From sequence record ON528723: a stretch of 38,729 bases of DNA. One strand, 5' to 3'. Position 1 is the stretch's first letter. Each line of letters begins with the position of its first letter. A program made the translations under genes and the position numbers. Below, piece after piece: positions 2,754 through 38,729 of this stretch. The stretch comes from Shigella phage ESh10. The notes below the pieces were generated by a model. That model searched no databases. It worked only from the letters and a program-made list of their open reading frames with translations, and was not told where the DNA came from.

Positions 2754-3800
2754 ATGAACATCTTCAATACCAACCCATTCAAAGCTGTGTCATTCGTAGA
2801 GTCTGCCGTTAAGAAAGCGCTGGAGACCTCCGGCTACCTAATGGCTGATATCAAATATGATGGTGTGCGCGGTAACATTGTGGTTGACAACGTGGCTGAG
2901 GCCGCATGGTTGTCTCGCGTATCCAAGTTCATCCCGGCGCTAGAACACCTGAACGGATTCGATAAGCGCTGGCAGCAACTACTGAACGATGACCGCTGCA
3001 TCTTCCCGGATGGCTTCATGCTGGATGGCGAACTGATGGTCAAAGGTGTAGACTTCAACACCGGGTCTGGCCTGCTGCGTACCAAGTGGCTCAAGAAGGA
3101 TAACGCCGAGTTCCATAACGTAATGGTCACACCAGACATGCTCAAGCCACGTAAGGTGGGAGTAGCTAAACGGGTTCGCACCGCCTTTGAGTTGGACACT
3201 AAGCGCCTGAGCGTGCGCCTGTATGCTGTCATGCCGATTCACATTGCGGAGTCTGGCGAGGACTACGATGTACAGAACCTGCTGATGCCGTATCATGTGG
3301 AAGCCATGCGCTCTCTTCTGGTTGAATACTTCCCGGAAATCGAGTGGCTTATCGCTGAGACCTACGAGGTCTACGATATGGATTCGCTGACTGAACTGTA
3401 CGAAGAGAAGCGTGCCGAAGGTCACGAGGGTCTCATTGTGAAAGACCCACAAGGAATCTACAAGCGAGGCAAGAAGTCTGGCTGGTGGAAGCTCAAGCCT
3501 GAGTGTGAAGCTGATGGTATCATTCAGGGTGTCAATTGGGGAACCGAAGGGTTAGCCAACGAGGGTAAAGTGATAGGCTTTAGTGTGCTTCTTGAGACTG
3601 GTCGTTTAGTAGACGCCAACAACATCTCTCGCGCATTGATGGACGAGTTCACAGCCAACGTTAAAGCCCACGGTGAAGACTTCTACAACGGGTGGGCCTG
3701 TCAGGTCAACTATATGGAAGAGACCCCGGACGGCTCCCTGCGTCACCCTAGCTTCGAGAAGTTCCGAGGCACTGAGGACAACCCTCAAGAGAAAATGTAA
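2754..3800 (+). CDS. 1.3: ATP-dependent DNA ligase
   Basis: Translation has the adenylation motif (AD)IKYDGVRG and aligns along its length to T7 ligase; start 2754 (GAGGA 9 nt upstream) preferred over ORF-track start 2739. Confidence 0.9.
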   Translation: MNIFNTNPFKAVSFVESAVKKALETSGYLMADIKYDGVRGNIVVDNVAEAAWLSRVSKFIPALEHLNGFDKRWQQLLNDDRCIFPDGFMLDGELMVKGVDFNTGSGLLRTKWLKKDNAEFHNVMVTPDMLKPRKVGVAKRVRTAFELDTKRLSVRLYAVMPIHIAESGEDYDVQNLLMPYHVEAMRSLLVEYFPEIEWLIAETYEVYDMDSLTELYEEKRAEGHEGLIVKDPQGIYKRGKKSGWWKLKPECEADGIIQGVNWGTEGLANEGKVIGFSVLLETGRLVDANNISRALMDEFTANVKAHGEDFYNGWACQVNYMEETPDGSLRHPSFEKFRGTEDNPQEKM

Positions 3801-3849
3801 CCAACTCACTGGCTCACCTTAACGGGTGGGCCTTTCTTCGTTCAGAGGT

Positions 3850-3871
3850 ATTAACCCTCACTAACAGGAGA
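3850..3871 (+). promoter_or_regulatory. T3-type phage RNAP promoter
   Basis: attaaccctcactaacaggaga. Confidence 0.8.
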
Positions 3872-3879
3872 CACACACC

Positions 3880-3957
3880 ATGTGGCTTATCCTATTCGCT
3901 ATCGTCGCAACTCTGGGATTAATGGTTGCCGACGACAACATTTGGCCTGATTGTTAA
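3880..3957 (+). CDS. very small hydrophobic peptide (25 aa), hypothetical
   Basis: ATG 9 nt after promoter-embedded AGGAG; MWLILFAIVATLGLMVADDNIWPDC; weak. Confidence 0.3.
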   Translation: MWLILFAIVATLGLMVADDNIWPDC

Positions 3958-3969
3958 GGAGACAACATC

Positions 3970-4227
3970 ATGCGTTTACACTTCAACAAATCAAATGGTA
4001 TCTTTTCGGTTCGCCGTGAAGACCGCTCTACAGCAGTGGCCTCTGAGCGCAACGCCAAGCTGCCGCTGATTGGTTCGGTCGTACCATTGTCGCCGCGTGT
4101 TCACCTACTGATCACTCGTGGAGAGTTCATTAAGGCGATGAACAAAGAGCGCACACATCTGGAAGCCGTGGTCACTTACTGGCCTCGCATCCGTCTGTTC
4201 ATTAAGTGGATTAAGGAGGTGCTGTAA
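3970..4227 (+). CDS. 1.6: gene 1.6 protein
   Basis: AAGGAGA SD; 85 aa, resembles T7 gp1.6. Confidence 0.7.
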   Translation: MRLHFNKSNGIFSVRREDRSTAVASERNAKLPLIGSVVPLSPRVHLLITRGEFIKAMNKERTHLEAVVTYWPRIRLFIKWIKEVL

Positions 4228-28496: not shown

Positions 28497-30239
28497 ATGG
28501 CTACAACTATTAAGACCGTGATGACTTACCCGCTGGATGGTTCAACTACGGACTTTAATATTCCGTTCGAGTATCTGGCGCGTAAGTTCGTCCGAGTGAC
28601 CCTTATCGGTGTTGACCGAAAGGAACTCATCTTGAATAAAGACTATCGTTTTGCGACTAAGACCACAATCTCCACAACGAGAGCATTGGGGCCAGCGGAC
28701 GGTTATAACCTTATCGAGATTCGTCGGTACACCTCAGCGACTGAACGTCTGGTTGACTTTACGGATGGCTCAATCCTCCGTGCGTATGACCTGAACATCT
28801 CGCAGGTGCAGACCCTCCACGTTGCTGAGGAAGCGCGTGACCTTACCGCTGATACGATTGGCGTTAACAACGATGGTGACTTGGATGCTCGTGGTCGTCG
28901 TATCGTGAACGTTGCGGACGCTAAAGACCACGGTGATGCAATCAACTTAGGTCAAGTCCAGAAGTGGAACGACTCTGCGTTGAACTCTGCGAACCGCGCA
29001 CGGGCTGAGGCCGACCGTGCAACTGTGCGTGCTTCCGAGGCTGCTACCTCTGCGGGTAACTCTGCGAGTTCTGCAAGCCTGTCCCGTGATTGGGCTATCA
29101 AGGAATCGCCGGTGGAAGGAACCTTTAAGTCTTCCCGGTCGTATGCCCTTGACTCTATGGCGTACCGGGATGCGTCCAAGAGTTCTGCTGATGCTAGTGC
29201 TGCAAGTGCTGGTGCCGCGAAGACCTCTGAGATTAACACGAAGAACTCAGAAATCGCCGCGAAGACCTCTGAGACCAACGCGAAGGCCTCTGAGACCAAC
29301 GCTAAGGCTTCCGAGGAACGAGCCATTGAGGAAGCAAATAAGCTGGAGAACATGAATGGATTGGCTGGTGCCCTTGATAGGGTAGATGGAACAAATGTAT
29401 ACTGGAAAGGAAATATTAACGCTAATGGGCGGCTTTTCCTGACCAAAAACGGTTTTGATTGTGGTCAGTATCAACAGTTCTTTGGAGGCGAACCTAACCG
29501 TTACTCTGTCATGGAGTGGGGTGATAAGGACGGCTGGCATTTGTATTCTGAGAGGAAAACCGAAGGCGGTAGGCCAACGCTTAACGTGTTTGGTGATTTG
29601 AGCGTCGGTTTTGATATTCGGGCTGGTGCTACTCAATTTGCTAATCACATGTTTGTACACGACATGGTACAATACTGGCCCGGTGCTGGCAAGTTTGCTA
29701 ACCAGTTGTCTATCCCAGAAGCGCCATTTATCAAACAAGGGAGATACGAGGCCCCATCTGGTAACAGCTTATACGCCCCTATTGTTAAGGGAATCATACG
29801 GACGGCAGGTCACGGGTATAACACAGCGCTGTCCTTTGGTACTCTAACACAGGGTAACGGGTCGTTTGCTTCTGCGTGTATTCATGCGATTGGGGATAAC
29901 GGCACTTCTGGTTTCTGGGAATTTAACCCTAACAATAGGTCCTTCCGTAGTCAAGGTGATGGGCTCTTTGGCAACACTACTGTCTATCAGGATGGTAACA
30001 TCGGTGGCCCTACGTGGGGTGGCGACCTAGCGCAATGGCTCAGAGTAAATACGGTTAACCACATTGCTATGGGTGGAGTCAACCAGTCAACAGTGTGGAA
30101 TAGCTACGGTGTTTCTGATGGTGGCGGTAAGGTAGTAACTGGCGTTGTAAACTCTAACGCTGATGGTGCGATAGACTTTTGTCAGTGGCGTGTTATGCAA
30201 TTCGTTCGTAACGACGGTCAACGCTTTAATATTTACTGA
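28497..30239 (+). CDS. 17: tail fibre protein (T7 gp17-type N-terminal adaptor domain; heterologous-looking distal domain)
   Basis: 580 aa; N-terminus MATTIKTVMTYPLDGSTTDFNIPFEYLARKFV…DFTDGSILRAYDLN is the conserved tail-attachment domain; shaft with heptad-like repeats; distal ~250 aa Gly/Asn/Trp-rich. Confidence 0.9.
   Translation: MATTIKTVMTYPLDGSTTDFNIPFEYLARKFVRVTLIGVDRKELILNKDYRFATKTTISTTRALGPADGYNLIEIRRYTSATERLVDFTDGSILRAYDLNISQVQTLHVAEEARDLTADTIGVNNDGDLDARGRRIVNVADAKDHGDAINLGQVQKWNDSALNSANRARAEADRATVRASEAATSAGNSASSASLSRDWAIKESPVEGTFKSSRSYALDSMAYRDASKSSADASAASAGAAKTSEINTKNSEIAAKTSETNAKASETNAKASEERAIEEANKLENMNGLAGALDRVDGTNVYWKGNINANGRLFLTKNGFDCGQYQQFFGGEPNRYSVMEWGDKDGWHLYSERKTEGGRPTLNVFGDLSVGFDIRAGATQFANHMFVHDMVQYWPGAGKFANQLSIPEAPFIKQGRYEAPSGNSLYAPIVKGIIRTAGHGYNTALSFGTLTQGNGSFASACIHAIGDNGTSGFWEFNPNNRSFRSQGDGLFGNTTVYQDGNIGGPTWGGDLAQWLRVNTVNHIAMGGVNQSTVWNSYGVSDGGGKVVTGVVNSNADGAIDFCQWRVMQFVRNDGQRFNIY
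29217..29322 (+). repeat. approximately 21-bp imperfect tandem repeat (about 4-5 units) within gene 17
   Basis: gcgaagacctctgagaccaac-like units; protein-level repeat AKTSE(T/I)N. Confidence 0.6.
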
Positions 30240-30251
30240 TAGGAGGACGAT

Positions 30252-30776
30252 ATGGGAACTTTACGTCACTATAAGAATTTCGTAAATTACACTCCAGAAC
30301 GCACCAAAGAGAATGCAGACCTTCTAGACCACGGAGTCGGTTTCTCAAAGGATGAGAACGGGAATGACTGGTATGAACTTCGCAATACATTCCGTGAGGA
30401 TACATGGAAACTTGTCTACGCCAAAGATGGTTCAGTTATTCAATGTGAACAGGATGTTCAGGAGTTAGCCGTTCAGGGATCTGCTGGGGTGGTTGAGCTT
30501 GAGGAAATCCCTACTGAGTATTCTCGGTACAATATGGTTCAGTGGGGGTGGGACGGCGATAAGCTAACTTGGCATCCTCGGTACTTTGAGCACAAGAAGG
30601 CCCAGCTAATCTCTATGGCCTCCAAGAAGATTGAGCAGTATGCTGACTTTATAGCTCTTGGGGAGGAGGGATTAGAGGGTCTACTAAATGCGTGGCGAGC
30701 CTATCGCCTTGCTGTATATAAAGTAGACCTTAGTGTTCTACCTTTCTATGACTGGCCCGAGCAACCAGAAACCTAA
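30252..30776 (+). CDS. tail fibre assembly (Tfa-like) chaperone
   Basis: 174 aa; AGGAGG SD 13 nt after gene 17 stop; C-terminus …GLLNAWRAYRLAVYKVDLSVLPFYDWPEQPET matches the lambda Tfa / P2 G / Mu U C-terminal motif (LxAWxxYRxxLxxVDxSxxPxxxWPxxP). Confidence 0.7.
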   Translation: MGTLRHYKNFVNYTPERTKENADLLDHGVGFSKDENGNDWYELRNTFREDTWKLVYAKDGSVIQCEQDVQELAVQGSAGVVELEEIPTEYSRYNMVQWGWDGDKLTWHPRYFEHKKAQLISMASKKIEQYADFIALGEEGLEGLLNAWRAYRLAVYKVDLSVLPFYDWPEQPET

Positions 30777-30835
30777 TGACAACCTCAAGGAAAGACGTGT
30801 AGTCCACGGATGGACTCTTACAAGGAGGACACTAC

Positions 30836-31042: not shown

Positions 31043-31309
31043 ATGAGTGACAAGACTTTAATCAAGCTGCTGGAGATGCTGGACACGGAGATGGCACAGC
31101 GTATGCTTGCTGACCTCCAGAGCGAGGAACGCCGAACTCCGCAGCTTTACAACGCAATCGGCAAACTGTTAGACCGCCATAAGTTCCAAATCAGTAAGCT
31201 GACCCCGGATGAGAACATCCTCGGTGGACTGGCGGCAGGTCTGGAAGACTACAACAAAGTGGTAGGCCCTAATGGTCTGACTGACGATGAGGCCATCACG
31301 CTACAGTAA
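31043..31309 (+). CDS. 18: terminase small subunit (DNA maturation protein A)
   Basis: 88 aa; T7 gp18-like. Confidence 0.85.
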   Translation: MSDKTLIKLLEMLDTEMAQRMLADLQSEERRTPQLYNAIGKLLDRHKFQISKLTPDENILGGLAAGLEDYNKVVGPNGLTDDEAITLQ

Positions 31310-31398: not shown

Positions 31399-31851
31399 AT
31401 GCTAAAACTTTTACGCAGCGCACTCCCTTGGGTACTCGCCGGGACACTCTTTATGGGTGGCTGGCACTTAGGGTCAACCCATGAGAGAGCAAACTGGAAG
31501 GAGGTAATTCAAAATGAATACATTGCGAAAACAAAAGCAACCGCAGCAACTCAGGCAGAGGTCGGTCGTGTATCCCGTGAGTACCAAGAAGAGATTGCAG
31601 CCATTGAAGGCAGCACTGATAGGATGCTTAATGACCTGCGTAGTAATAATAAGCGGCTGTCAGTCCGCATCAAGACCCTTACCGGACTACCAGAAGATAA
31701 CGGTAGATGCGAGTTTAATGGTCGAGCCGAACTACACGAGTCAGATGCTAAGCGTATTATCGGAATAACCCAAGCTGCTGATGCTCACGTAAGAGCGCTC
31801 CAGCGTACTATTAAGGAGATGCAGAATGAGCGACACCCAAGCAAACCGTAA
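31399..31851 (+). CDS. 18.5: i-spanin (Rz-like)
   Basis: 150 aa from ATG 31399 (GGGAGG SD); N-terminal TM segment then coiled-coil-like periplasmic domain. Confidence 0.8.
31514..31768 (+). CDS. 18.7: o-spanin (Rz1-like lipoprotein) nested out of frame inside the Rz gene
   Basis: 84 aa; lipobox-like …VVIISGC followed by Pro-rich short mature region; entirely within 31399..31851 in another frame. Confidence 0.7.
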   Translation: MNTLRKQKQPQQLRQRSVVYPVSTKKRLQPLKAALIGCLMTCVVIISGCQSASRPLPDYQKITVDASLMVEPNYTSQMLSVLSE

Positions 31852-33589
31852 TGCGCTAATCATCGCGCAGCTTAAGGGTGACTTCGTGGCCTTCCTGTTC
31901 GTATTGTGGAAGGCTTTGGCTCTCCCGCCACCGACTAAGTGTCAGATTGATATGGCCCGGTGTCTGGCTAACGGAGACAACAAGAAGTTTATCCTACAGG
32001 CTTTCCGTGGTATCGGTAAGTCATTCATCACTTGTGCGTTCGTTGTGTGGACGTTATGGCGTGACCCTCAGTTGAAGATACTGATTGTCTCTGCATCCAA
32101 AGAACGTGCGGACGCTAACTCCATCTTCATCAAGAACATCATTGACCTGCTACCATTCTTGGCTGAGCTAAAGCCTCGCCCCGGTCAGCGTGACTCTGTG
32201 ATTAGTTTCGATGTTGGCCCTGCCAAGCCTGACCACTCTCCGTCTGTGAAGTCGGTGGGTATCACTGGTCAGTTGACTGGTAGCCGTGCTGATATCATCA
32301 TAGCGGATGACGTTGAGATTCCGTCTAACTCCGCAACTCAAGGTGCCCGTGAGAAGCTGTGGACTCTGGTGCAGGAATTTGCTGCGCTTCTGAAACCGCT
32401 GCCAACTTCTCGCGTTATCTACCTTGGCACGCCTCAAACCGAAATGACCTTGTACAAGGAACTCGAAGATAACCGTGGGTACACCACAATAATCTGGCCT
32501 GCGCTCTATCCGCGTAGCCGTGAGGAAGACTTGTACTATGGCGACCGTCTGGCCCCGATGCTCCGCGAAGAGTTCAACGATGGGTTCGAGATGCTCCAAG
32601 GTCAACCGACTGACCCCGTGCGCTTCGATATGGAAGACCTGCGTGAGCGTGAGTTGGAATACGGTAAGGCGGGCTTCACTTTGCAGTTCATGCTCAACCC
32701 GAACCTGAGTGATGCCGAGAAGTACCCCTTACGCCTCCGTGACGCTATCGTGTGCGGTCTGGACTTCGAGAAAGCCCCGATGCATTACCAGTGGCTTCCG
32801 AACCGTCAGAATCGCAATGAAGAGCTTCCTAACGTGGGCCTTAAGGGTGATGATATTCATAGCTATCATTCGTGCAGCCAGAACACTGGACAGTACCAGC
32901 AACGCATCCTCGTGATTGACCCTAGTGGTCGCGGTAAGGATGAGACAGGTTACGCAGTGTTGTTCACCCTGAATGGCTACATCTATCTGATGGAAGCTGG
33001 CGGGTTCCGCGATGGTTATTCCGATAAGACCCTTGAGTCCCTCGCTAAGAAAGCGAAGCAGTGGAAGGTTCAGACAGTGGTCTTCGAGAGTAACTTCGGG
33101 GATGGTATGTTTGGTAAGGTATTCAGCCCTGTGCTCCTGAAACACCATGCAGCCGCTATGGAAGAGATTCGCGCTCGTGGTATGAAGGAACTACGCATTT
33201 GTGATACGCTGGAGCCTGTACTCTCTACGCACCGCCTTGTGATTCGTGACGAGGTGATTCGTGAGGACTACCAGACTGCCCGTGATGCTGATGGCAAGCA
33301 TGACGTTCGCTATTCACTGTTCTACCAGTTGACCCGTATGGCCCGTGAGAAGGGCGCTGTGGCACATGACGACCGACTTGATGCGTTAGCATTGGGTGTG
33401 GAGTTCTTACGCTCTACGATGGAACTGGACGCCGTGAAGGTGGAGGCTGAGGTGCTTGAGGCGTTCTTAGAGGAACACATGGAGCACCCAATCCATTCGG
33501 CTGGTCATGTAGTTACCTCTATGGTTGACGGGATGGAACTCTATTGGGAGGATGACGATGTGAATAGCAACAGGTTCATTGACTGGTAG
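31826..33589 (+). CDS. 19: terminase large subunit (DNA maturation protein B)
   Basis: 587 aa; Walker A-like …GIGKSF…, T7 gp19-like along its length. Confidence 0.95.
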
Positions 33590-33669: not shown

Positions 33670-33692
33670 AATTAACCCTCACTAAAGGGAGA
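33670..33692 (+). promoter_or_regulatory. T3-type phage RNAP promoter (right-end promoter, phiOR-like)
   Basis: aattaaccctcactaaagggagag. Confidence 0.8.
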
Positions 33693-33832: not shown

Positions 33833-33982
33833 ATGTTGCGCTTGCTGATTGCCCTGCTGCGTCATAGAGTCACTTGGCGATTTCTTCTGGTACTTACTGC
33901 TACCCTTGGGTACGCAGGTCTTACTGACCACCTCGGTCAACTGGAAGTGGCCTTTTGCTCTATACTCTCTTGTGGGGATTAA
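33833..33982 (+). CDS. 19.5: gene 19.5 protein (49 aa, hydrophobic)
   Basis: ATG 33833 after AAGGAGG; 49 aa as T7 gp19.5; ORF-track start 33773 lacks an SD. Confidence 0.55.
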   Translation: MLRLLIALLRHRVTWRFLLVLTATLGYAGLTDHLGQLEVAFCSILSCGD

Positions 33983-34076
33983 ATTATTGTTGATGACCGA
34001 CAAGCGGCTCTGAGGGATTCGTAGGTATAGTTTCACTACACCAACTCATCCCTCTAGAGTCAACCATAAAGGTTAT

Positions 34077-34555
34077 ACCTAAAGATGCCCTGTAGTTCGT
34101 AATGGTCTTACAGGGTCTTCTGGTGTCTCCTAGCTATCCCTTCGGGATGCGCCTATGGTCTCACCTATGGTGTGGCCTTACCTAAAGTGGTTGCCTAAAG
34201 AGACCCTTTAAGAATTTACCACAAAAATCTGAATGGGTATCTCACAGTTCAAGAACCCAAAGTACCCCCATAGCCCTCCTAAAGCCACCTAAAGCCAGCC
34301 CTACCCTAGGGTTTAACCTTCGGTTAACCTTGGGTATCTCCTCAAGTGGCCTATAGGATAGCCTAAAGTGTTGCCTAAAGTCAATACCTAAAGAGGTGGA
34401 TGGCTTAAGGAGGACTTGAAGAGTGTCCTAGTGTACCAGTTCGATAGTACATCTCTATGTGTCCCTATCTGTTAGCCTCATAAAGTAAACCCTAAAGCCA
34501 CCACCTAAAGACCAGACCTAAAGCCACCACCTAAAGAGTAGCGCTATCTTAAAGA
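34077..34555 (+). repeat. array of dispersed CCTAAAG-type heptamer repeats typical of T7-family genome ends
   Basis: More than 12 copies of (A)CCTAAAG or one-mismatch variants, e.g. 34077, 34181, 34194 and the run ccctaaagccaccacctaaagaccagacctaaagccaccacctaaagag. Confidence 0.7.
34240..34470 (+). repeat. terminal repeat of the mature genome (single copy here; genome left end at 34240)
   Basis: tctcacagttcaagaacccaaagtaccccc at 34240 matches the extreme left end of T3/T7 DNA (TCTCA(C/T)AGT…); right boundary (~34466-34470, …tgtgtccct) placed by analogy and approximate. Confidence 0.5.
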
Positions 34556-34628
34556 CAACCAGACCGATAGACCAACTGTTAACCTGTAGTGATGCCCTGT
34601 AGTTGTCTATGGTGTCTATCGTCAATTC

Positions 34629-34650
34629 AATTACCCTCACTAAAGGGAAT
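34629..34650 (+). promoter_or_regulatory. T3-type phage RNAP promoter (left-end promoter, phiOL-like)
   Basis: aattaccctcactaaagggaat followed by AT-rich segment. Confidence 0.75.
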
Positions 34651-34704
34651 GAGGTTGATACTTAAAGAGGGAATAAAGATTTAATAAAAGATTTAAATTA
34701 ATGG

Positions 34705-34734
34705 TTGACTTTAAGTTACCTTTAAGGCTATTAT
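34705..34734 (+). promoter_or_regulatory. host sigma70 early promoter (A1-like)
   Basis: TTGACT (34705..34710), 18-nt spacer, TATTAT (34729..34734). Confidence 0.65.
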
Positions 34735-34833
34735 TCATCACGTCAACGGGACAACGGCCTTAAAGCCACTCCCTGAGATACCGGAGTCAACCGGATAAGT
34801 AGACAGCCTGATAAGTCATACGAAAAACAGGCA

Positions 34834-34862
34834 TTGACAACATGAAGTAAACGCAGTAAGAT
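34834..34862 (+). promoter_or_regulatory. host sigma70 early promoter (A2-like)
   Basis: TTGACAacatgaagtaa… -35 at 34834..34839, 17-nt spacer, TAAGAT at 34857..34862; near-identical to T7 A2. Confidence 0.8.
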
Positions 34863-34934
34863 GCACAACATGACGTTAACCACCGCTTCGGTGTCTTCTA
34901 GGCGACTTAAGCGCACCACGGCACATAAAGCGAA

Positions 34935-34963
34935 ACAAAATGGTTGACAACATGAAGTAAGCA
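34935..34963 (+). promoter_or_regulatory. host sigma70 early promoter (A3-like)
   Basis: TTGACAacatgaagtaagcacgg TACGAT; -35 at 34935..34940, -10 at 34958..34963; near-identical to T7 A3. Confidence 0.8.
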
Positions 34964-35184
34964 CGGTACGATGTACCACATGAAAGACACCGAGTGTCGT
35001 AGGTGTAAAAACGCGACATAGTGGATAGATGGCGAAAGCACAAGCGACCACGATAATAAAGAGCTTGTCGCACTTATAACGCAAGTGACGGCTAACACTG
35101 AAATAGCCTCAGCTCGACGAAACTGTAGCCTAAAGTTCTTTAACAATCTGGATAATAGCTCTTGAGTGTACCGTATAAGCGAAT

Positions 35185-35222
35185 AACTCAAGGTCGCACT
35201 GAAAGCGTGGCCTTTATGATAT
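35185..35222 (+). promoter_or_regulatory. RNase III-type processing hairpin upstream of gene 0.3
   Basis: aactcaaggtcgcactgaaagcgtggcctttatgat. Confidence 0.65.
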
Positions 35223-35256
35223 TCACTTAACATGAACTAACATGAGGTAACACCAA

Positions 35257-35715
35257 ATGATTTTCACTAAAGAGCCTGCTAACGTCTTCTATGTACTGGT
35301 GTCAGCATTCCGTTCTAACCTTGATGATGAGGTGAACATGAGCCGCCACCGCCACATGGTGAGCGAATTGCGTGCCGCACCGGGTATCTACGGAGAACTT
35401 GAGTCTACCGATTTGACCGGGTGCTATCGTGAGAGTATCGCACTGGCTCCAACCGAGGAAAAGACCATGCGTTTACTCTGCAAGAACAAAGAGCAGGCAC
35501 TACAGGTAGCTCGCTTAGCTTGCAATGAGTATGAGCAAGATTGCGTACTGGTATACAAATCACAGACTCACACAGCGGGATTGGTGTACGCTAAGGGTAT
35601 CGACGGTTACAAGGCTGAACGTCTGCCGGGTAGCTTCCAAGAAGTGCCCAAAGGCGCACCGCTGCAAGGCTGCTTTACGATTGACGAGTTCGGTCGCCGC
35701 TGGCAGGTGGCCTAA
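35257..35715 (+). CDS. 0.3: S-adenosyl-L-methionine hydrolase (SAMase), anti-restriction protein
   Basis: 152 aa; MIFTKEPANVFYVLVSAFRSNL… recognised as T3 gene 0.3 SAMase, not the T7 Ocr DNA mimic. Confidence 0.9.
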   Translation: MIFTKEPANVFYVLVSAFRSNLDDEVNMSRHRHMVSELRAAPGIYGELESTDLTGCYRESIALAPTEEKTMRLLCKNKEQALQVARLACNEYEQDCVLVYKSQTHTAGLVYAKGIDGYKAERLPGSFQEVPKGAPLQGCFTIDEFGRRWQVA

Positions 35716-35716
35716 C

Positions 35717-35872
35717 ATGAATCGTTATTACATCAACGTACCGGGCTGGGGTGGGTCTCTAACCTGCTACGGATACAACGAACGGGACGCACGGAAACGT
35801 TTTAGAGAACAACACGGATTCGGAAGGCTTCCTAATGGGACGCGCCTATGGCTGGACGCCCGTGATTGGTAA
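35717..35872 (+). CDS. small early protein (51 aa), hypothetical
   Basis: MNRYYINVPGWGG…; ATG 2 nt after the 0.3 stop; same frame as ORF 35525..35872. Confidence 0.5.
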   Translation: MNRYYINVPGWGGSLTCYGYNERDARKRFREQHGFGRLPNGTRLWLDARDW

Positions 35873-35877
35873 GTGAT

Positions 35878-35913
35878 AGACTCAAGGTCGCACTGTATGT
35901 GTGGCCTTTATGA
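35878..35913 (+). promoter_or_regulatory. RNase III-type processing hairpin
   Basis: actcaaggtcgcactgtatgtgtggcctttatgatt. Confidence 0.65.
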
Positions 35914-35939
35914 TTATCACTAAGTATAGGACTAACACC

Positions 35940-36140
35940 ATGAGTAAACTTCTGGCAACATCTAAAATAGAAGGCCAATGCACCGTAACACTGCGTGAGT
36001 ATTACCACGGGTCAATGGGAAGCACCTATATTGTGCGATACGGTAAACAGGTCACACATTGGGTAAACCCGATTTTAGCACAAGAGGATTATCAAGCCTG
36101 TGTGATGCACCAAGCAACATGTGCAGGCTGGAATGATTGA
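35940..36140 (+). CDS. small early protein (66 aa), hypothetical
   Basis: MSKLLATSKIEGQCTVTL…; ORF-track start 35901 lies inside the RNase III hairpin, so 35940 is preferred. Confidence 0.5.
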   Translation: MSKLLATSKIEGQCTVTLREYYHGSMGSTYIVRYGKQVTHWVNPILAQEDYQACVMHQATCAGWND

Positions 36141-36159
36141 CATTACAGGAGGATTGGCA

Positions 36160-36318
36160 ATGGTTATCTTTATCGCTGTCGCACTCTTTGCGGTCGCTGG
36201 CTGGTACTCTGAGTCACGCAAGGCCGCTCGCTATCATCGCAAGATGGTTAAACTCATGGAACACTTGGACGCAGAAGGGCGAGGCCGCGAGGCTATCGAA
36301 CTGGTGAAACACGCATGA
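36160..36318 (+). CDS. small early membrane protein (52 aa), hypothetical
   Basis: ATG after CAGGAGG; single predicted TM helix MVIFIAVALFAVAGW. Confidence 0.45.
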   Translation: MVIFIAVALFAVAGWYSESRKAARYHRKMVKLMEHLDAEGRGREAIELVKHA

Positions 36319-36512
36319 TGATTCTCTTTATCGCACTGGTCTATCTGTGCATCGCAATGTACTTTATGCGAGACTTTAAGCGCGGTCTGGTAATACACAA
36401 GGCAACGCTGAGTTACTTTAAGTGGGGATTCATCCCACGGTTTACGGTTCGTGAACGTAACGGACGCTTTAAGGCCAACAAGGTAGGAGTATTCTACATT
36501 GCTACGCACTAA
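36315..36512 (+). CDS. small early membrane protein (65 aa), hypothetical
   Basis: ATGATGA start/stop overlap with preceding ORF; hydrophobic N-terminus MMILFIALVYLCIAMYF. Confidence 0.5.
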   Translation: MMILFIALVYLCIAMYFMRDFKRGLVIHKATLSYFKWGFIPRFTVRERNGRFKANKVGVFYIATH

Positions 36513-36683: not shown

Positions 36684-37793
36684 ATGACTTTCACCGAAGC
36701 ACAAGCCGCACTCGAAGCTATCCGCAACCTACCGATTGAGCGTCTGAACGAGCGCCAGCCCATGCTGGTGGCTCTTGCGGCTGCCATCGTGAACGATGAG
36801 ACCCAAGACGGGCAACTGACGCAGGCAGCAGGAAACACGGCGCTAGAGCACATGGACTACTGGCAGACCCTAGCGGCGCGTATGCGTGATGTTGGTTTCA
36901 TCAAGCTGGGCAATGGTCACTTTAGCGCAGCATATGAGCACGCATTGTTACCGGGCAAGGTCATCAAGGTAGGCTTTAAGAAAGAGGACTCAGGCGCAGC
37001 CTATGCAGCCTTCTGCCGTATGAATCAAGGCCGGGAAGGTATCCCTAAGGTGTATGACATTCAGCGCCATGCTGGTTGTTACACGGTGGTTCTTGATTAT
37101 CTGAATCCGCTTAACTACTGGTGCGATGGTGAGAGTGACAAGATTCGTCACCACTTCAAGGCCGCACGGGAAATCATTGAGGAGGATTGCTTTGATGCTG
37201 CCGAAGAGTACCCAATAAGTGACGGGTTCATTGAGACCTGCAAGGATATCCGCAAGTTCTTCTTAGGCATCGCATCGTTCGACTGCCACAGCGGGAACAT
37301 GATGAAAGACCAGATGGGACGCCTGATTATCACAGACCCGGTATCATTCAGCGCAGACGACAAGTTAAAGCCGGGTGAGTTCCACTGTGACCCGGATGAA
37401 CTCATCGCTGAGATTGAGGCGCTGAGAGCGCAGGAAGCGATTGACCGCTGCAAGGCACGTAAGGCACGCCGTGACCCTAAAGGAGACTTTCAGGTAGCAC
37501 GTAAAGCCCGTGCCAAATGGCGCAGAAAGGCCTCTAAGCGTGAGAAGCGCAACGCTAAGGTACTCGCTAAGATGCGCATGGATGCCAACGAGCAACGTAG
37601 GGCCGAGCCTAGGGCACGTATGTTGTGGGGCGATAAGCACTGGCGCAACGCTTGGGTGCAGCACATGAATGTTGACTTCGCACGGCTAGAACTGTTAGCA
37701 GCCGCACAGATGGCACAGATAGACCACAAGGCTATCGTATGTGGCAAGCCGTTACACATAGACGCATACCTTGACAAGAGACTGCAAGGCTGA
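36684..37793 (+). CDS. 0.7: serine/threonine protein kinase / host transcription shut-off protein
   Basis: 369 aa; T7 gp0.7-like (…LGNGHFSAAY…VIKVGFKKEDSGAAY…FCRM…GIPKVYD…). Confidence 0.9.
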   Translation: MTFTEAQAALEAIRNLPIERLNERQPMLVALAAAIVNDETQDGQLTQAAGNTALEHMDYWQTLAARMRDVGFIKLGNGHFSAAYEHALLPGKVIKVGFKKEDSGAAYAAFCRMNQGREGIPKVYDIQRHAGCYTVVLDYLNPLNYWCDGESDKIRHHFKAAREIIEEDCFDAAEEYPISDGFIETCKDIRKFFLGIASFDCHSGNMMKDQMGRLIITDPVSFSADDKLKPGEFHCDPDELIAEIEALRAQEAIDRCKARKARRDPKGDFQVARKARAKWRRKASKREKRNAKVLAKMRMDANEQRRAEPRARMLWGDKHWRNAWVQHMNVDFARLELLAAAQMAQIDHKAIVCGKPLHIDAYLDKRLQG

Positions 37794-37863: not shown

Positions 37864-38729
37864 ATGAACATCATCGAAACTATCGAAAAGAATGACTTCT
37901 CTGAAATCGAACTGGCTGCTATCCCGTTCAACACGCTGGCAGACCACTACGGCAGCGCACTGGCTCGTGAACAACTGGCTTTAGAGCACGAGTCTTATGA
38001 GTTAGGTGAGCGCCGCTTCCTCAAGATGCTGGAGCGTCAAGCGAAAGCTGGTGAGATTGCAGACAACGCAGCCGCTAAGCCATTACTCGCTACGCTTCTC
38101 CCTAAGTTAACCGCACGCATCGTTGAGTGGCTCGAAGAGTACGCCTCTAAGAAAGGCCGCAAGCCTGTAGCCTATGCACCACTCCAATCACTCAAGCCGG
38201 AGGCGTCCGCGTTTATCACACTCAAGGTCATCCTTGCATCACTGACCAGCACGAACATGACAACCATTCAGGCCGCTGCTGGTATGCTGGGGAAGGCCAT
38301 TGAGGACGAGGCACGTTTCGGTCGCATCCGTGACCTCGAAGCGAATCACTTCAAGAAGCACGTTGAGGAACAGCTTAACAAGCGCCACGGGCAAGTCTAC
38401 AAGAAAGCCTTTATGCAGGTGGTAGAGGCAGACATGATTGGTCGCGGGCTGCTGGGAGGTGAGGCGTGGTCTAGCTGGGACAAGGAAACCACGATGCACG
38501 TAGGGATTCGCCTGATTGAAATGCTGATTGAATCCACAGGTCTGGTGGAATTACAGCGCCACAACGCAGGTAACGCAGGCTCTGACCATGAGGCACTGCA
38601 ACTGGCACAAGAGTACGTCGATGTGTTAGCGAAGCGTGCAGGCGCTCTGGCGGGTATCTCTCCGATGTTCCAGCCGTGTGTCGTACCGCCGAAACCTTGG
38701 GTATCAATCACAGGTGGCGGCTATTGGGC
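37864..38729 (+). CDS. 1: T3-type DNA-directed RNA polymerase, N-terminal 288 codons (3'-partial; continues at position 1)
   Basis: MNIIETIEKNDFSEIELAAIPFNTLADHYG… recognised as T3/T7 RNAP N-terminus; frame continues exactly into 1..1789. Confidence 0.95.
   Translation, partial: MNIIETIEKNDFSEIELAAIPFNTLADHYGSALAREQLALEHESYELGERRFLKMLERQAKAGEIADNAAAKPLLATLLPKLTARIVEWLEEYASKKGRKPVAYAPLQSLKPEASAFITLKVILASLTSTNMTTIQAAAGMLGKAIEDEARFGRIRDLEANHFKKHVEEQLNKRHGQVYKKAFMQVVEADMIGRGLLGGEAWSSWDKETTMHVGIRLIEMLIESTGLVELQRHNAGNAGSDHEALQLAQEYVDVLAKRAGALAGISPMFQPCVVPPKPWVSITGGGYW

What the first reader, a model, noticed from the sequence alone, without database searches (positions are those of the whole stretch)
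33983..34700. Genome ends, terminal repeat and concatemer junction lie inside the window
tctcacagttcaagaacccaaagtaccccc at 34240 matches the physical left end of T3/T7 DNA, so 34239|34240 corresponds to the mature right-end/left-end junction. The terminal repeat (about 230 bp by analogy, here ~34240..34470) is present once, as expected for a circularised assembly. The region also carries the CCTAAAG heptamer arrays and the phiOL promoter.
Basis: partly seen in the sequence, partly recalled or inferred. Interest (0 to 1): 0.45.

Follow-up and report, generated by a model that had tools for sequence, protein, structure and literature searches.

The report
T3-type phage genome ends, collapsed repeat
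The window is a complete T3-like phage genome written as a circle, and the flagged spot is the well-known place where the packaging enzyme cuts the DNA chain to make the virus's linear ends, so the finding is correct but ordinary.

Summary
Confirmed and already known. The window is a unit-length, circularly permuted assembly of a Teetrevirus (T3-like phage; about 96.7% identical to Yersinia phage AP5). Window 34240 aligns base-for-base with position 1 of T3, phiSG-JL2, phiYeO3-12 and T7. The last bases of those records (...GTACATCTCTATGTGTCCCT) are window 34447-34466, a 20/20 match to the read-mapped T3 right terminus. The terminal-repeat homologue is therefore 34240-34466 (227 bp; T3 231, phiSG-JL2 230, T7 160). 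It occurs once in the window.

The window's last and first bases join without a gap inside the RNA polymerase gene. The sequence thus equals one concatemer junction, and virion DNA would be about 38,956 bp.

One correction: 34239|34240 is only the left-end cut. The mature right end is 34466|34467.

The class II pause signal ATCTGTT (34467-34473) directly abuts the repeat, as in T7 and phiSG-JL2. It is the only HATCTGTT on the coding strand.

Twelve of the window's 19 CCTAAAG heptamers lie in 34078-34536, all on the + strand. phiOR (33670-33692), phiOL (34628-34650), host promoters A0-A3 and T7-type terminase genes are all in their T3 places.

The physical ends themselves cannot be tested without reads from virion DNA.

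The parts
31043..31309 (+). Gene 18 homologue, small terminase subunit (88 aa)
   Evidence: ORF. Pfam DNA_Packaging_2 (PF11123), E 1.2e-16. Colinear with T3 gene 18.
31826..33589 (+). Gene 19 homologue, large terminase subunit (587 aa), the presumed nuclease that makes the end cuts
   Evidence: ORF. Pfam Terminase-T7_RNaseH-like (PF22530), E 5.9e-40, and Terminase_6N. Colinear with T3 gene 19.
33670..33692 (+). Phage RNA polymerase promoter phiOR (AATTAACCCTCACTAAAGGGAGA, +1 G at 33687). Transcription from it runs through the junction.
   Evidence: Perfect T3 promoter consensus. Aligns with the annotated phiOR of T3 (37432-37454) and phiSG-JL2.
33833..33982 (+). Gene 19.5 (49 aa), the last gene before the right end. 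The finding's start, 33983, is the first base after its stop codon.
   Evidence: ORF frame. Aligns with T3 37595-37744 and phiSG-JL2 gene 19.5. No Pfam family.
33983..34239 (+). Right-hand unique non-coding segment that precedes the repeat in virion DNA. It holds a strong hairpin (34008-34059), the inverted repeat CCCTGTA/TACAGGG (34088-34116), three CCTAAAG copies (34078, 34181, 34194) and a 23-bp segment (about 34133-34155) that T3 lacks.
   Evidence: Aligns with the T3 and phiSG-JL2 sequence immediately left of their annotated right repeats. Folds. Heptamers. 95-100% conserved in nine relatives except around the 23-bp segment.
34239..34240 (.). Predicted left-end cut site (...AAAAATCTGAATGGGTA | TCTCACAGTT...)
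   Evidence: 34240 equals position 1 of T3, phiSG-JL2, AP5, phiYeO3-12 and T7. At least nine different phages' records start at, or within one base of, this position, counting the list plus T3 and T7. The T3 terminus is read-mapped (PMC3896407; match).
34240..34466 (+). Terminal repeat homologue, 227 bp, single copy in the window. It would be present at both ends of virion DNA.
   Evidence: Aligns end to end with the annotated repeats of T3 (1-231 and 37978-38208) and phiSG-JL2 (1-230 and 38586-38815). No second copy in the window.
34355..34384 (-). Leftward host-type promoter A0 inside the repeat (TTGACT, 18 nt, TATCCT)
   Evidence: Consensus scan. Same place as annotated A0 in T3, phiSG-JL2 and phiYeO3-12.
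34466..34467 (.). Predicted right-end cut site (...TCTCTATGTGTCCCT | ATCTGTTAG...)
   Evidence: The T3, T7, phiSG-JL2 and phiYeO3-12 records all end at ...GTGTCCCT, which is window 34466. 20/20 match to the read-mapped T3 right terminus.
34467..34473 (+). Class II pause/termination signal ATCTGTT ('CJ'), preceded by T, directly abutting the repeat
   Evidence: It is the only HATCTGTT on the + strand of the window. Identical position in T7, T3 and phiSG-JL2, where it is annotated as CJ terminator 231-237. Motif definition from 10.1101/2021.01.11.426313 and 10.64898/2026.02.12.705533.
34491..34536 (+). Tandem array of CCTAAAG with a 13-bp period (four heptamers), right of the repeat
   Evidence: T3 lacks one 26-bp double unit.
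34628..34650 (+). Phage RNA polymerase promoter phiOL (+1 G at 34645)
   Evidence: Promoter family (D2). Aligns with the annotated phiOL of T3 (366-388) and phiSG-JL2 (383-405).
34705..34972 (+). Early host-type promoters A1 (34705-34734), A2 (34834-34862) and A3 (34944-34972), which mark the genetic left end
   Evidence: Each matches 10 of 12 consensus positions. Order and spacing as annotated in T3.

Best explanation
The window is one unit length of a T3-like (Teetrevirus) phage genome that an assembler closed into a circle and opened at an arbitrary point inside gene 1. Coordinates 33983-34700 are therefore the concatemer junction: right-hand unique DNA, one copy of the terminal repeat (34240-34466), then left-hand unique DNA.

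Proposed mechanism, with each step marked:
1. Replicating genomes join head to tail through the shared repeat, so each joint carries one repeat copy. This is established for T7/T3 and inferred here.
2. Phage RNA polymerase starting at phiOR (33670-33692) transcribes through gene 19.5 and the repeat. It pauses at the class II signal ATCTGTT (34467-34473), which sits immediately after the repeat. The motif and its position are shown here; the pausing is inferred from T7.
3. The paused polymerase-lysozyme complex helps recruit the prohead-terminase complex (gp18, 31043-31309; gp19, 31826-33589). Inferred from T7.
4. Terminase cuts at two fixed sites, 34239|34240 for the left end and 34466|34467 for the right end. 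The repeat between them is duplicated by DNA synthesis, so both neighbouring genomes keep a copy. The cut positions rest on base-exact homology to mapped T3/T7 termini; the duplication is inferred.
5. Mature DNA would be 38,729 + 227 = 38,956 bp, with a 227-bp direct repeat at each end.

The one-directional CCTAAAG arrays that flank and enter the repeat are conserved features of this junction. Their role is unproven.
For: Cut-site and repeat homology:
- 34240 aligns with base 1 of T3, phiSG-JL2, AP5, phiYeO3-12 and T7. The T3, T7, phiSG-JL2 and phiYeO3-12 records end at window 34466.
- Both read-mapped T3 termini (PMC3896407) match at these two positions only.
- At least nine related phages' records begin at, or within one base of, the 34240 equivalent, many with the repeat annotated.

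Single copy and circular permutation:
- There is one repeat copy in the window.
- The rotated window is colinear with T3 1-37977.
- The window's end and start join without a gap inside gene 1.

Signals and genes:
- The CJ motif abuts the repeat and is unique on the + strand. It is annotated at the same place in phiSG-JL2.
- T7-type terminase genes are present.
- phiOR, phiOL and A0-A3 sit in their T3 positions.
- The junction is 95-100% conserved across nine relatives, and each carries 9-15 CCTAAAG copies, all in one orientation.

Literature:
- Short-read assemblies usually drop one repeat copy and open DTR genomes at a random base (PMC10438801; PMC5557969).
- Repeats are generated by extension from staggered nicks (PMC5557969).
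- Repeat duplication during packaging is needed in T3/T7 (PMC5923468).
Against: There is no direct evidence on the physical ends of this particular phage. The window carries no reads or virion data, so both cut positions rest on homology.

Some deposited relatives annotate different repeat limits. AP5 gives 235 bp, ending at the window equivalent of 34485. ChM-G5 gives 276 bp, spanning the equivalents of 34217-34490. The AP5 paper describes no terminus mapping.

HATCTGTT is not enriched in the window as a whole: 2 found against 3.9 expected. Its significance rests on its conserved position, not its count.

The exact chemistry of repeat duplication in T7/T3 (staggered nicks versus a hairpin intermediate) is not settled, as far as I recall. 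Nothing here bears on it.
Confidence: 0.93

Rival explanations
1. The ends are of the T3 type, but the repeat limits in this lineage differ by some 20 bp from T3/T7. For example, the right end could lie near 34485, as annotated for the closest full-genome relative AP5. Or the repeat could span about 34217-34490, as annotated for ChM-G5.
For: AP5 is the best full-genome match (96.7%). It annotates a 235-bp repeat whose right copy ends at ...ATCTGTTAGCCTCATAAAG, the window equivalent of 34485. ChM-G5 and VSG32 annotate a 276-bp repeat that starts 23 bp earlier and ends 24 bp later.
Against: The terminal nucleotides TCTCAYAGT... and ...TGTGTCCCT are invariant from T7 to T3 to this window, although the repeat interior has diverged. 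T3's ends were mapped by read-start pile-ups at exactly these bases, and the 20-mer at the right end is identical here. The AP5 paper reports no terminus-mapping experiment. AP5's left end agrees with 34240. A repeat that extended past ATCTGTT would place the pause signal inside the repeat, unlike T7, T3 and phiSG-JL2.
Confidence: 0.05
2. The sequence is a truly circular or headful-packaged, circularly permuted genome with no fixed ends. On this reading the similarity to the T3 ends is a relic.
For: The window closes on itself without a duplicated end. On its face that is also what a circular or permuted genome would give.
Against: The large terminase carries the T7-specific RNase H-like nuclease domain. 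The genome is colinear with T3 over its whole length. The junction is conserved at 95-100%, as highly as the neighbouring coding sequence, including both cut sites and the pause signal. Collapse of short repeats into a circle is the usual assembler behaviour for this phage group.
Confidence: 0.01

Closest known systems
Bacteriophage T3 genome ends and concatemer junction (NC_003298: repeats 1-231 and 37978-38208, phiOR, phiOL, A0-A3)
   Same: Same order of every element: gene 19, phiOR, gene 19.5, right non-coding DNA, repeat, ATCTGTT, heptamer array, phiOL, A1-A3, gene 0.3. The terminal nucleotides are identical or nearly so: 1 mismatch in the 20-mer at the left end and 20/20 at the right.
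   Different: The repeat is 227 bp rather than 231 bp, owing to a shorter C-run and small indels. A 23-bp extra segment lies at about 34133-34155. The window has one more 26-bp double unit in the array right of the repeat. The first 750 bases are about 88% identical to T3.
Salmonella phage phiSG-JL2, Yersinia phages phiYeO3-12 and vB_YenP_AP5, and other Teetrevirus records
   Same: The repeat is 92.7-98.7% identical among the records listed. phiSG-JL2 annotates the CJ terminator at the same place directly after its left repeat. The closest whole-genome relatives are about 96.7% identical.
   Different: No record in the collection is identical to the window. Many relatives are, like the window, deposited circularly permuted with a single repeat copy. 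AP5 and ChM-G5 annotate somewhat longer repeats.
Bacteriophage T7 concatemer junction (V01146: 160-bp repeat, CJ class II pause site, CCTAAAG-type repeat arrays)
   Same: Conserved left terminus TCTCACAGT. Conserved right terminus TCTCTnTGTGTCCCT followed by ATCTGTT. Conserved AAAAATCTGArTG..TA just before the left cut. Conserved AACCTTCGGTTrACCTTG hairpin inside the repeat. One-directional CCTAAAG repeats.
   Different: T7's repeat is 160 bp and lacks about 60 bp of the interior. Overall identity in this region is only about 70%. The promoters are T3-specific, not T7-specific.

Membership tests
T7/T3-type short direct terminal repeat (DTR) ends and concatemer junction | Left terminus sequence homologous to an experimentally mapped T3/T7 left end | tested here: met
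   34240 equals base 1 of T3, T7, phiSG-JL2, AP5 and phiYeO3-12. 19/20 match to the read-mapped T3 terminus.
T7/T3-type short direct terminal repeat (DTR) ends and concatemer junction | Right terminus sequence homologous to an experimentally mapped T3/T7 right end, a few hundred bp downstream of the left cut | tested here: met
   34447-34466 matches the read-mapped T3 right terminus 20/20. The T3, T7, phiSG-JL2 and phiYeO3-12 records end there.
T7/T3-type short direct terminal repeat (DTR) ends and concatemer junction | The same repeat physically present at both ends of virion DNA (sharp termini, doubled coverage) | not testable with these tools
   The window holds only an assembled sequence with one repeat copy. 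No reads or virion DNA are available.
T7/T3-type short direct terminal repeat (DTR) ends and concatemer junction | Class II polymerase pause signal (H)ATCTGTT at the right edge of the junction | tested here: met
   TATCTGTT at 34466-34473 is the only + strand copy in the window. Same position as in T7, T3 and phiSG-JL2.
T7/T3-type short direct terminal repeat (DTR) ends and concatemer junction | Phage promoters phiOR upstream and phiOL downstream of the repeat, both reading rightward | tested here: met
   phiOR at 33670-33692 and phiOL at 34628-34650, aligned with annotated T3 features.
T7/T3-type short direct terminal repeat (DTR) ends and concatemer junction | T7-type terminase (gp18 and gp19) encoded by the same genome | tested here: met
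   PF11123 at E 1.2e-16 and PF22530 at E 5.9e-40.
Genus Teetrevirus (T3-like Studiervirinae) | Whole-genome colinearity and high nucleotide identity with T3-group phages; T3-type promoter consensus | tested here: met
   Colinear with T3 1-37977. 96.7% identity to AP5 over 25 kb. At least 12 copies of the T3-type promoter core TAACCCTCACTAA, counting one-mismatch variants.
Headful (pac) packaging with circular permutation | No fixed ends; terminase of the P22/T4/P1 headful types | tested here: not met
   The large terminase has the T7-specific nuclease domain. Both T3 cut-site sequences are conserved exactly.

The most novel reading that the evidence does not exclude
The one-directional CCTAAAG arrays lie left of, inside and right of the repeat: 12 copies here and 9-15 in relatives, never on the opposite strand. 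They could be the array recognised by the small terminase subunit, or by another junction-binding protein. If so, their copy-number differences (for example the 26-bp unit absent from T3) and the lineage-specific 23-bp hairpin segment at 34133-34155 could tune packaging specificity between co-infecting T3-like phages. Nothing in this work tests that, and nothing excludes it.
Probability: 0.15. Interest if true: 0.35.

Novelty: already known. Interest (0 to 1): 0.08.

Why it matters
The practical value is for annotation only. It shows that the record is a complete genome opened at an arbitrary base inside gene 1. The record should be re-opened at 34240 and given a second copy of 34240-34466 at its right end, making the mature length about 38,956 bp. 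The 717-bp flagged stretch is regulatory and packaging DNA, not coding DNA; several deposited relatives carry doubtful small 'hypothetical protein' calls across it. It adds nothing new to the biology of T7/T3 DNA maturation.

Tried and rejected
- Second repeat copy or terminal overlap: a whole-window direct-repeat search found none.
- End-to-end joint of two mature molecules (GTGTCCCT|TCTCA): absent even with 2 mismatches. The junction is therefore the single-repeat, concatemer-type one.
- Coding potential of 33983-35256: only short ORFs of 26-113 aa on either strand, with no T3 counterpart annotated. Treated as non-coding.
- Rfam at gathering thresholds over the whole window: no hit.
- Count-based significance for HATCTGTT: not enriched, 2 found against 3.9 expected. 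Only its position and strand uniqueness are informative.
- Literature search for the T3 'pacB' packaging site: no open paper on it was found. I make no claim about the exact terminase-binding site.
- Longer repeat limits annotated for AP5 and ChM-G5: judged less reliable than the T3/T7 termini.
- Hairpin at 34575-34625: no better than shuffled sequence, z +0.2.

Full report
**1. Observation**

It is unique in the window even with three mismatches allowed, and none is expected by chance.

CCTAAAG occurs 19 times in the window against 3.8 expected. Twelve copies are packed into 34078-34536, all on the + strand:
- Three lie left of 34240.
- Five lie between 34240 and 34466.
- Four form a 13-bp-period tandem array at 34491-34536.

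A T3-type promoter (CAATTACCCTCACTAAAGGGAAT, +1 G at 34645) lies at 34628-34650.

**2. What the window is**

The window carries at least 12 copies of the T3 RNA polymerase promoter core TAACCCTCACTAA, counting one-mismatch variants. The flagged region matches 432 phage records, and the best are T3-like Teetrevirus phages at 95-96%. Over 25 kb the closest record is Yersinia phage vB_YenP_AP5 at 96.7%, and no record is identical.

When the window is rotated to start at 34240, it is colinear with T3 (NC_003298) from base 1 to base 37977. That is the base just before T3's right terminal repeat. One alignment block runs straight across the window's own end and start.

The last 150 and first 150 bases of the window, joined, align to T3 3692-3991 inside gene 1 (RNA polymerase) at 95% identity with no gap. 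No direct repeat of 30 bp or more links the window's two ends or duplicates 34240-34466.

The window is therefore one unit length of the genome, closed into a circle and opened at an arbitrary point, with one copy of the terminal repeat. This is the usual outcome for this phage group. [quoted passage not shown] Many of the closest deposited relatives are permuted in the same way.

**3. Where the ends are**

*Left end.* Alignment with the left ends of T3 and phiSG-JL2 puts window 34240 on their base 1. The same holds for AP5, phiYeO3-12 and T7.

*Right end.* Alignment with the right ends of T3 and phiSG-JL2 shows three things:
- The window is continuous through their right-hand unique sequence.
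- It enters the repeat at 34240.
- Their records stop at ...TCTCTATGTGTCCCT, which is window 34466.

T7 and phiYeO3-12 stop at the same conserved bases.

*Repeat length.* The repeat homologue is 34240-34466, 227 bp. T3 annotates 231 bp, phiSG-JL2 230, phiYeO3-12 232 and T7 160. Shorter C-runs and small indels account for the length differences from T3 and phiSG-JL2.

*Experimental anchor.* T3's ends have been mapped by read-start frequency. The forward peak is TCTCATAGTTCAAGAACCCA at base 1, and the reverse peak is AGGGACACATAGAGATGTAC at base 38208 (PMC3896407). PhageTerm reproduced a 231-bp repeat for T3 (PMC5557969). In the window these two 20-mers match only at 34240-34259 (one mismatch) and at 34447-34466 on the - strand (no mismatch).

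*Other records.* At least nine different phages' records start at, or within one base of, the 34240 equivalent. Several annotate the repeat there.

The right-end cut is 34466|34467. A head-to-tail joint of two mature molecules (GTGTCCCT|TCTCA) is not in the window.

**4. Anatomy of the junction, left to right**

| Element | Coordinates | Source |
|---|---|---|
| Small terminase, gene 18 | 31043-31309 | Pfam PF11123, |
| Large terminase, gene 19 | 31826-33589 | Pfam PF22530, the T7-specific nuclease domain, |
| phiOR, perfect consensus | 33670-33692 | |
| Gene 19.5 | 33833-33982 | |
| Non-coding right arm | 33983-34239 | |
| Terminal repeat | 34240-34466 | |
| Class II signal ATCTGTT | 34467-34473 | |
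| Tandem heptamer array | 34491-34536 | |
| phiOL | 34628-34650 | |
| Early host-type promoters A1, A2, A3 | 34705-34972 | |
| S-adenosylmethionine lyase, gene 0.3 | 35257-35715 | |

The finding starts on the first base after the gene 19.5 stop codon.

The non-coding right arm contains:
- A strong hairpin at 34008-34059 (-11.5 kcal/mol, z -4.4).
- The inverted repeat CCCTGTA/TACAGGG at 34088-34116 (z -3.6).

The repeat contains:
- A variable C-run.
- A conserved AACCTTCGGTTAACCTTG hairpin (z -3.4).
- The leftward host-type promoter A0 at 34355-34384.

The ATCTGTT signal is preceded by T and lies directly after the repeat.

Every element is where T3 and phiSG-JL2 annotate it. Across nine relatives the non-coding junction is 95-100% conserved, as high as gene 19.5. 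The exceptions are:
- An indel-prone patch at 34120-34159.
- Positions 34400-34419.
- The array and spacer between 34480 and 34660.

Each relative has 9-15 CCTAAAG copies and none on the opposite strand.

**5. How it most likely works**

*Shown here:*
- The two cut-site sequences, their spacing, and the single repeat copy.
- The pause motif abutting the repeat. It is the only HATCTGTT on the coding strand.
- The flanking promoters and the terminase genes.

*Taken from the literature on T7/T3:*
- Repeats overlap during replication to give concatemers. The repeat must be duplicated during packaging, or half the genomes would be lost (PMC5923468).
[quoted passage not shown] Polymerase stops 6-8 nt beyond it (10.1101/2021.01.11.426313; 10.64898/2026.02.12.705533).
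[quoted passage not shown] Packaging specificity maps to gp19 and to DNA within 5% of the termini (PMC3276506).

*Inferred for this phage:*
- Transcription from phiOR crosses the repeat and pauses at about 34479-34481.
- Terminase is recruited and cuts at 34239|34240 and 34466|34467.
- The 227-bp segment is copied, so each packaged genome of about 38,956 bp carries it at both ends.

The role of the heptamer arrays is not established by anything I found.

**6. Rivals**

- AP5 annotates a 235-bp repeat that ends 19 bp past the conserved terminus. ChM-G5 annotates a 276-bp repeat that starts 23 bp earlier and ends 24 bp later. The AP5 paper describes no terminus mapping. The terminal bases are invariant from T7 to this window although the interior has diverged. 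I give this rival about 5%.
- A truly circular or headful-permuted genome is contradicted by the T7-type terminase and the exact conservation of both cut sites. I give it about 1%.

**7. Novelty and verdict**

This is the textbook T3/T7 concatemer junction in a new isolate of a densely sampled genus. It is already known and of low interest, beyond telling an annotator how to re-open the record and restore the second repeat copy.

The physical ends of this isolate remain inferred. Read-start mapping or run-off sequencing of virion DNA would settle them.

Noticed in passing
window 34133-34155: A 23-bp segment (CTAGCTATCCCTTCGGGATGCG...) forms a small ATCCC/TTCG/GGGAT hairpin in the right-end non-coding arm. 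It is absent from T3 and phiSG-JL2 but present in most of the permuted relatives examined.
   Followed up: partly
window 34491-34536: The 13-bp-period CCTAAAG array varies in copy number among relatives. T3 lacks one 26-bp double unit, and relatives carry 9-15 heptamers in the junction.
   Followed up: partly
window 34084-34106 and 34591-34613: The direct repeat GATGCCCTGTAGTT... flanks the terminal repeat on both sides, 507 bp apart (D6). Its function is unknown.
   Followed up: no
window 34008-34059: A strong hairpin lies immediately after the gene 19.5 stop codon (DNA fold -11.5 kcal/mol, z -4.4). The sequence there is 96-100% conserved in nine relatives.
   Followed up: partly
L010/L011 (AP5) and L008/L009 (ChM-G5): Deposited relatives disagree on repeat limits. 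AP5 gives 235 bp and ChM-G5 276 bp, both extending past the conserved T3/T7 termini. The AP5 paper gives no terminus-mapping method.
   Followed up: yes
L015 (ESh8) 37-237, 728-832; L019 (Bumbleweed) 596-688, 753-842: Small 'hypothetical protein' CDSs are annotated across the non-coding junction, some on the minus strand of an otherwise one-strand genome. They are probably gene-caller artefacts.
   Followed up: no
window ~35708-36330: About 620 bp after gene 0.3 has no T3 counterpart. Two copies of an element lie around its start, at 35176-35227 and 35870-35921 (D6). By position relative to T3's annotation the first copy corresponds to RNase III site R0.3. ORFs of 79 and 65 aa lie there.
   Followed up: no
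window 29214-29318 and ~29538-30787: 21-nt tandem repeats occur at 29214-29318 (D4), which maps by position to the T3 tail-fibre gene 17. A stretch of about 1.2 kb at 29538-30787, mapping to the end of gene 17 and just beyond it, shows no T3 similarity. The tail-fibre C-terminal part appears to have been exchanged.
   Followed up: no
window 1-38729: An Rfam scan at gathering thresholds found no RNA family anywhere in the genome.
   Followed up: yes
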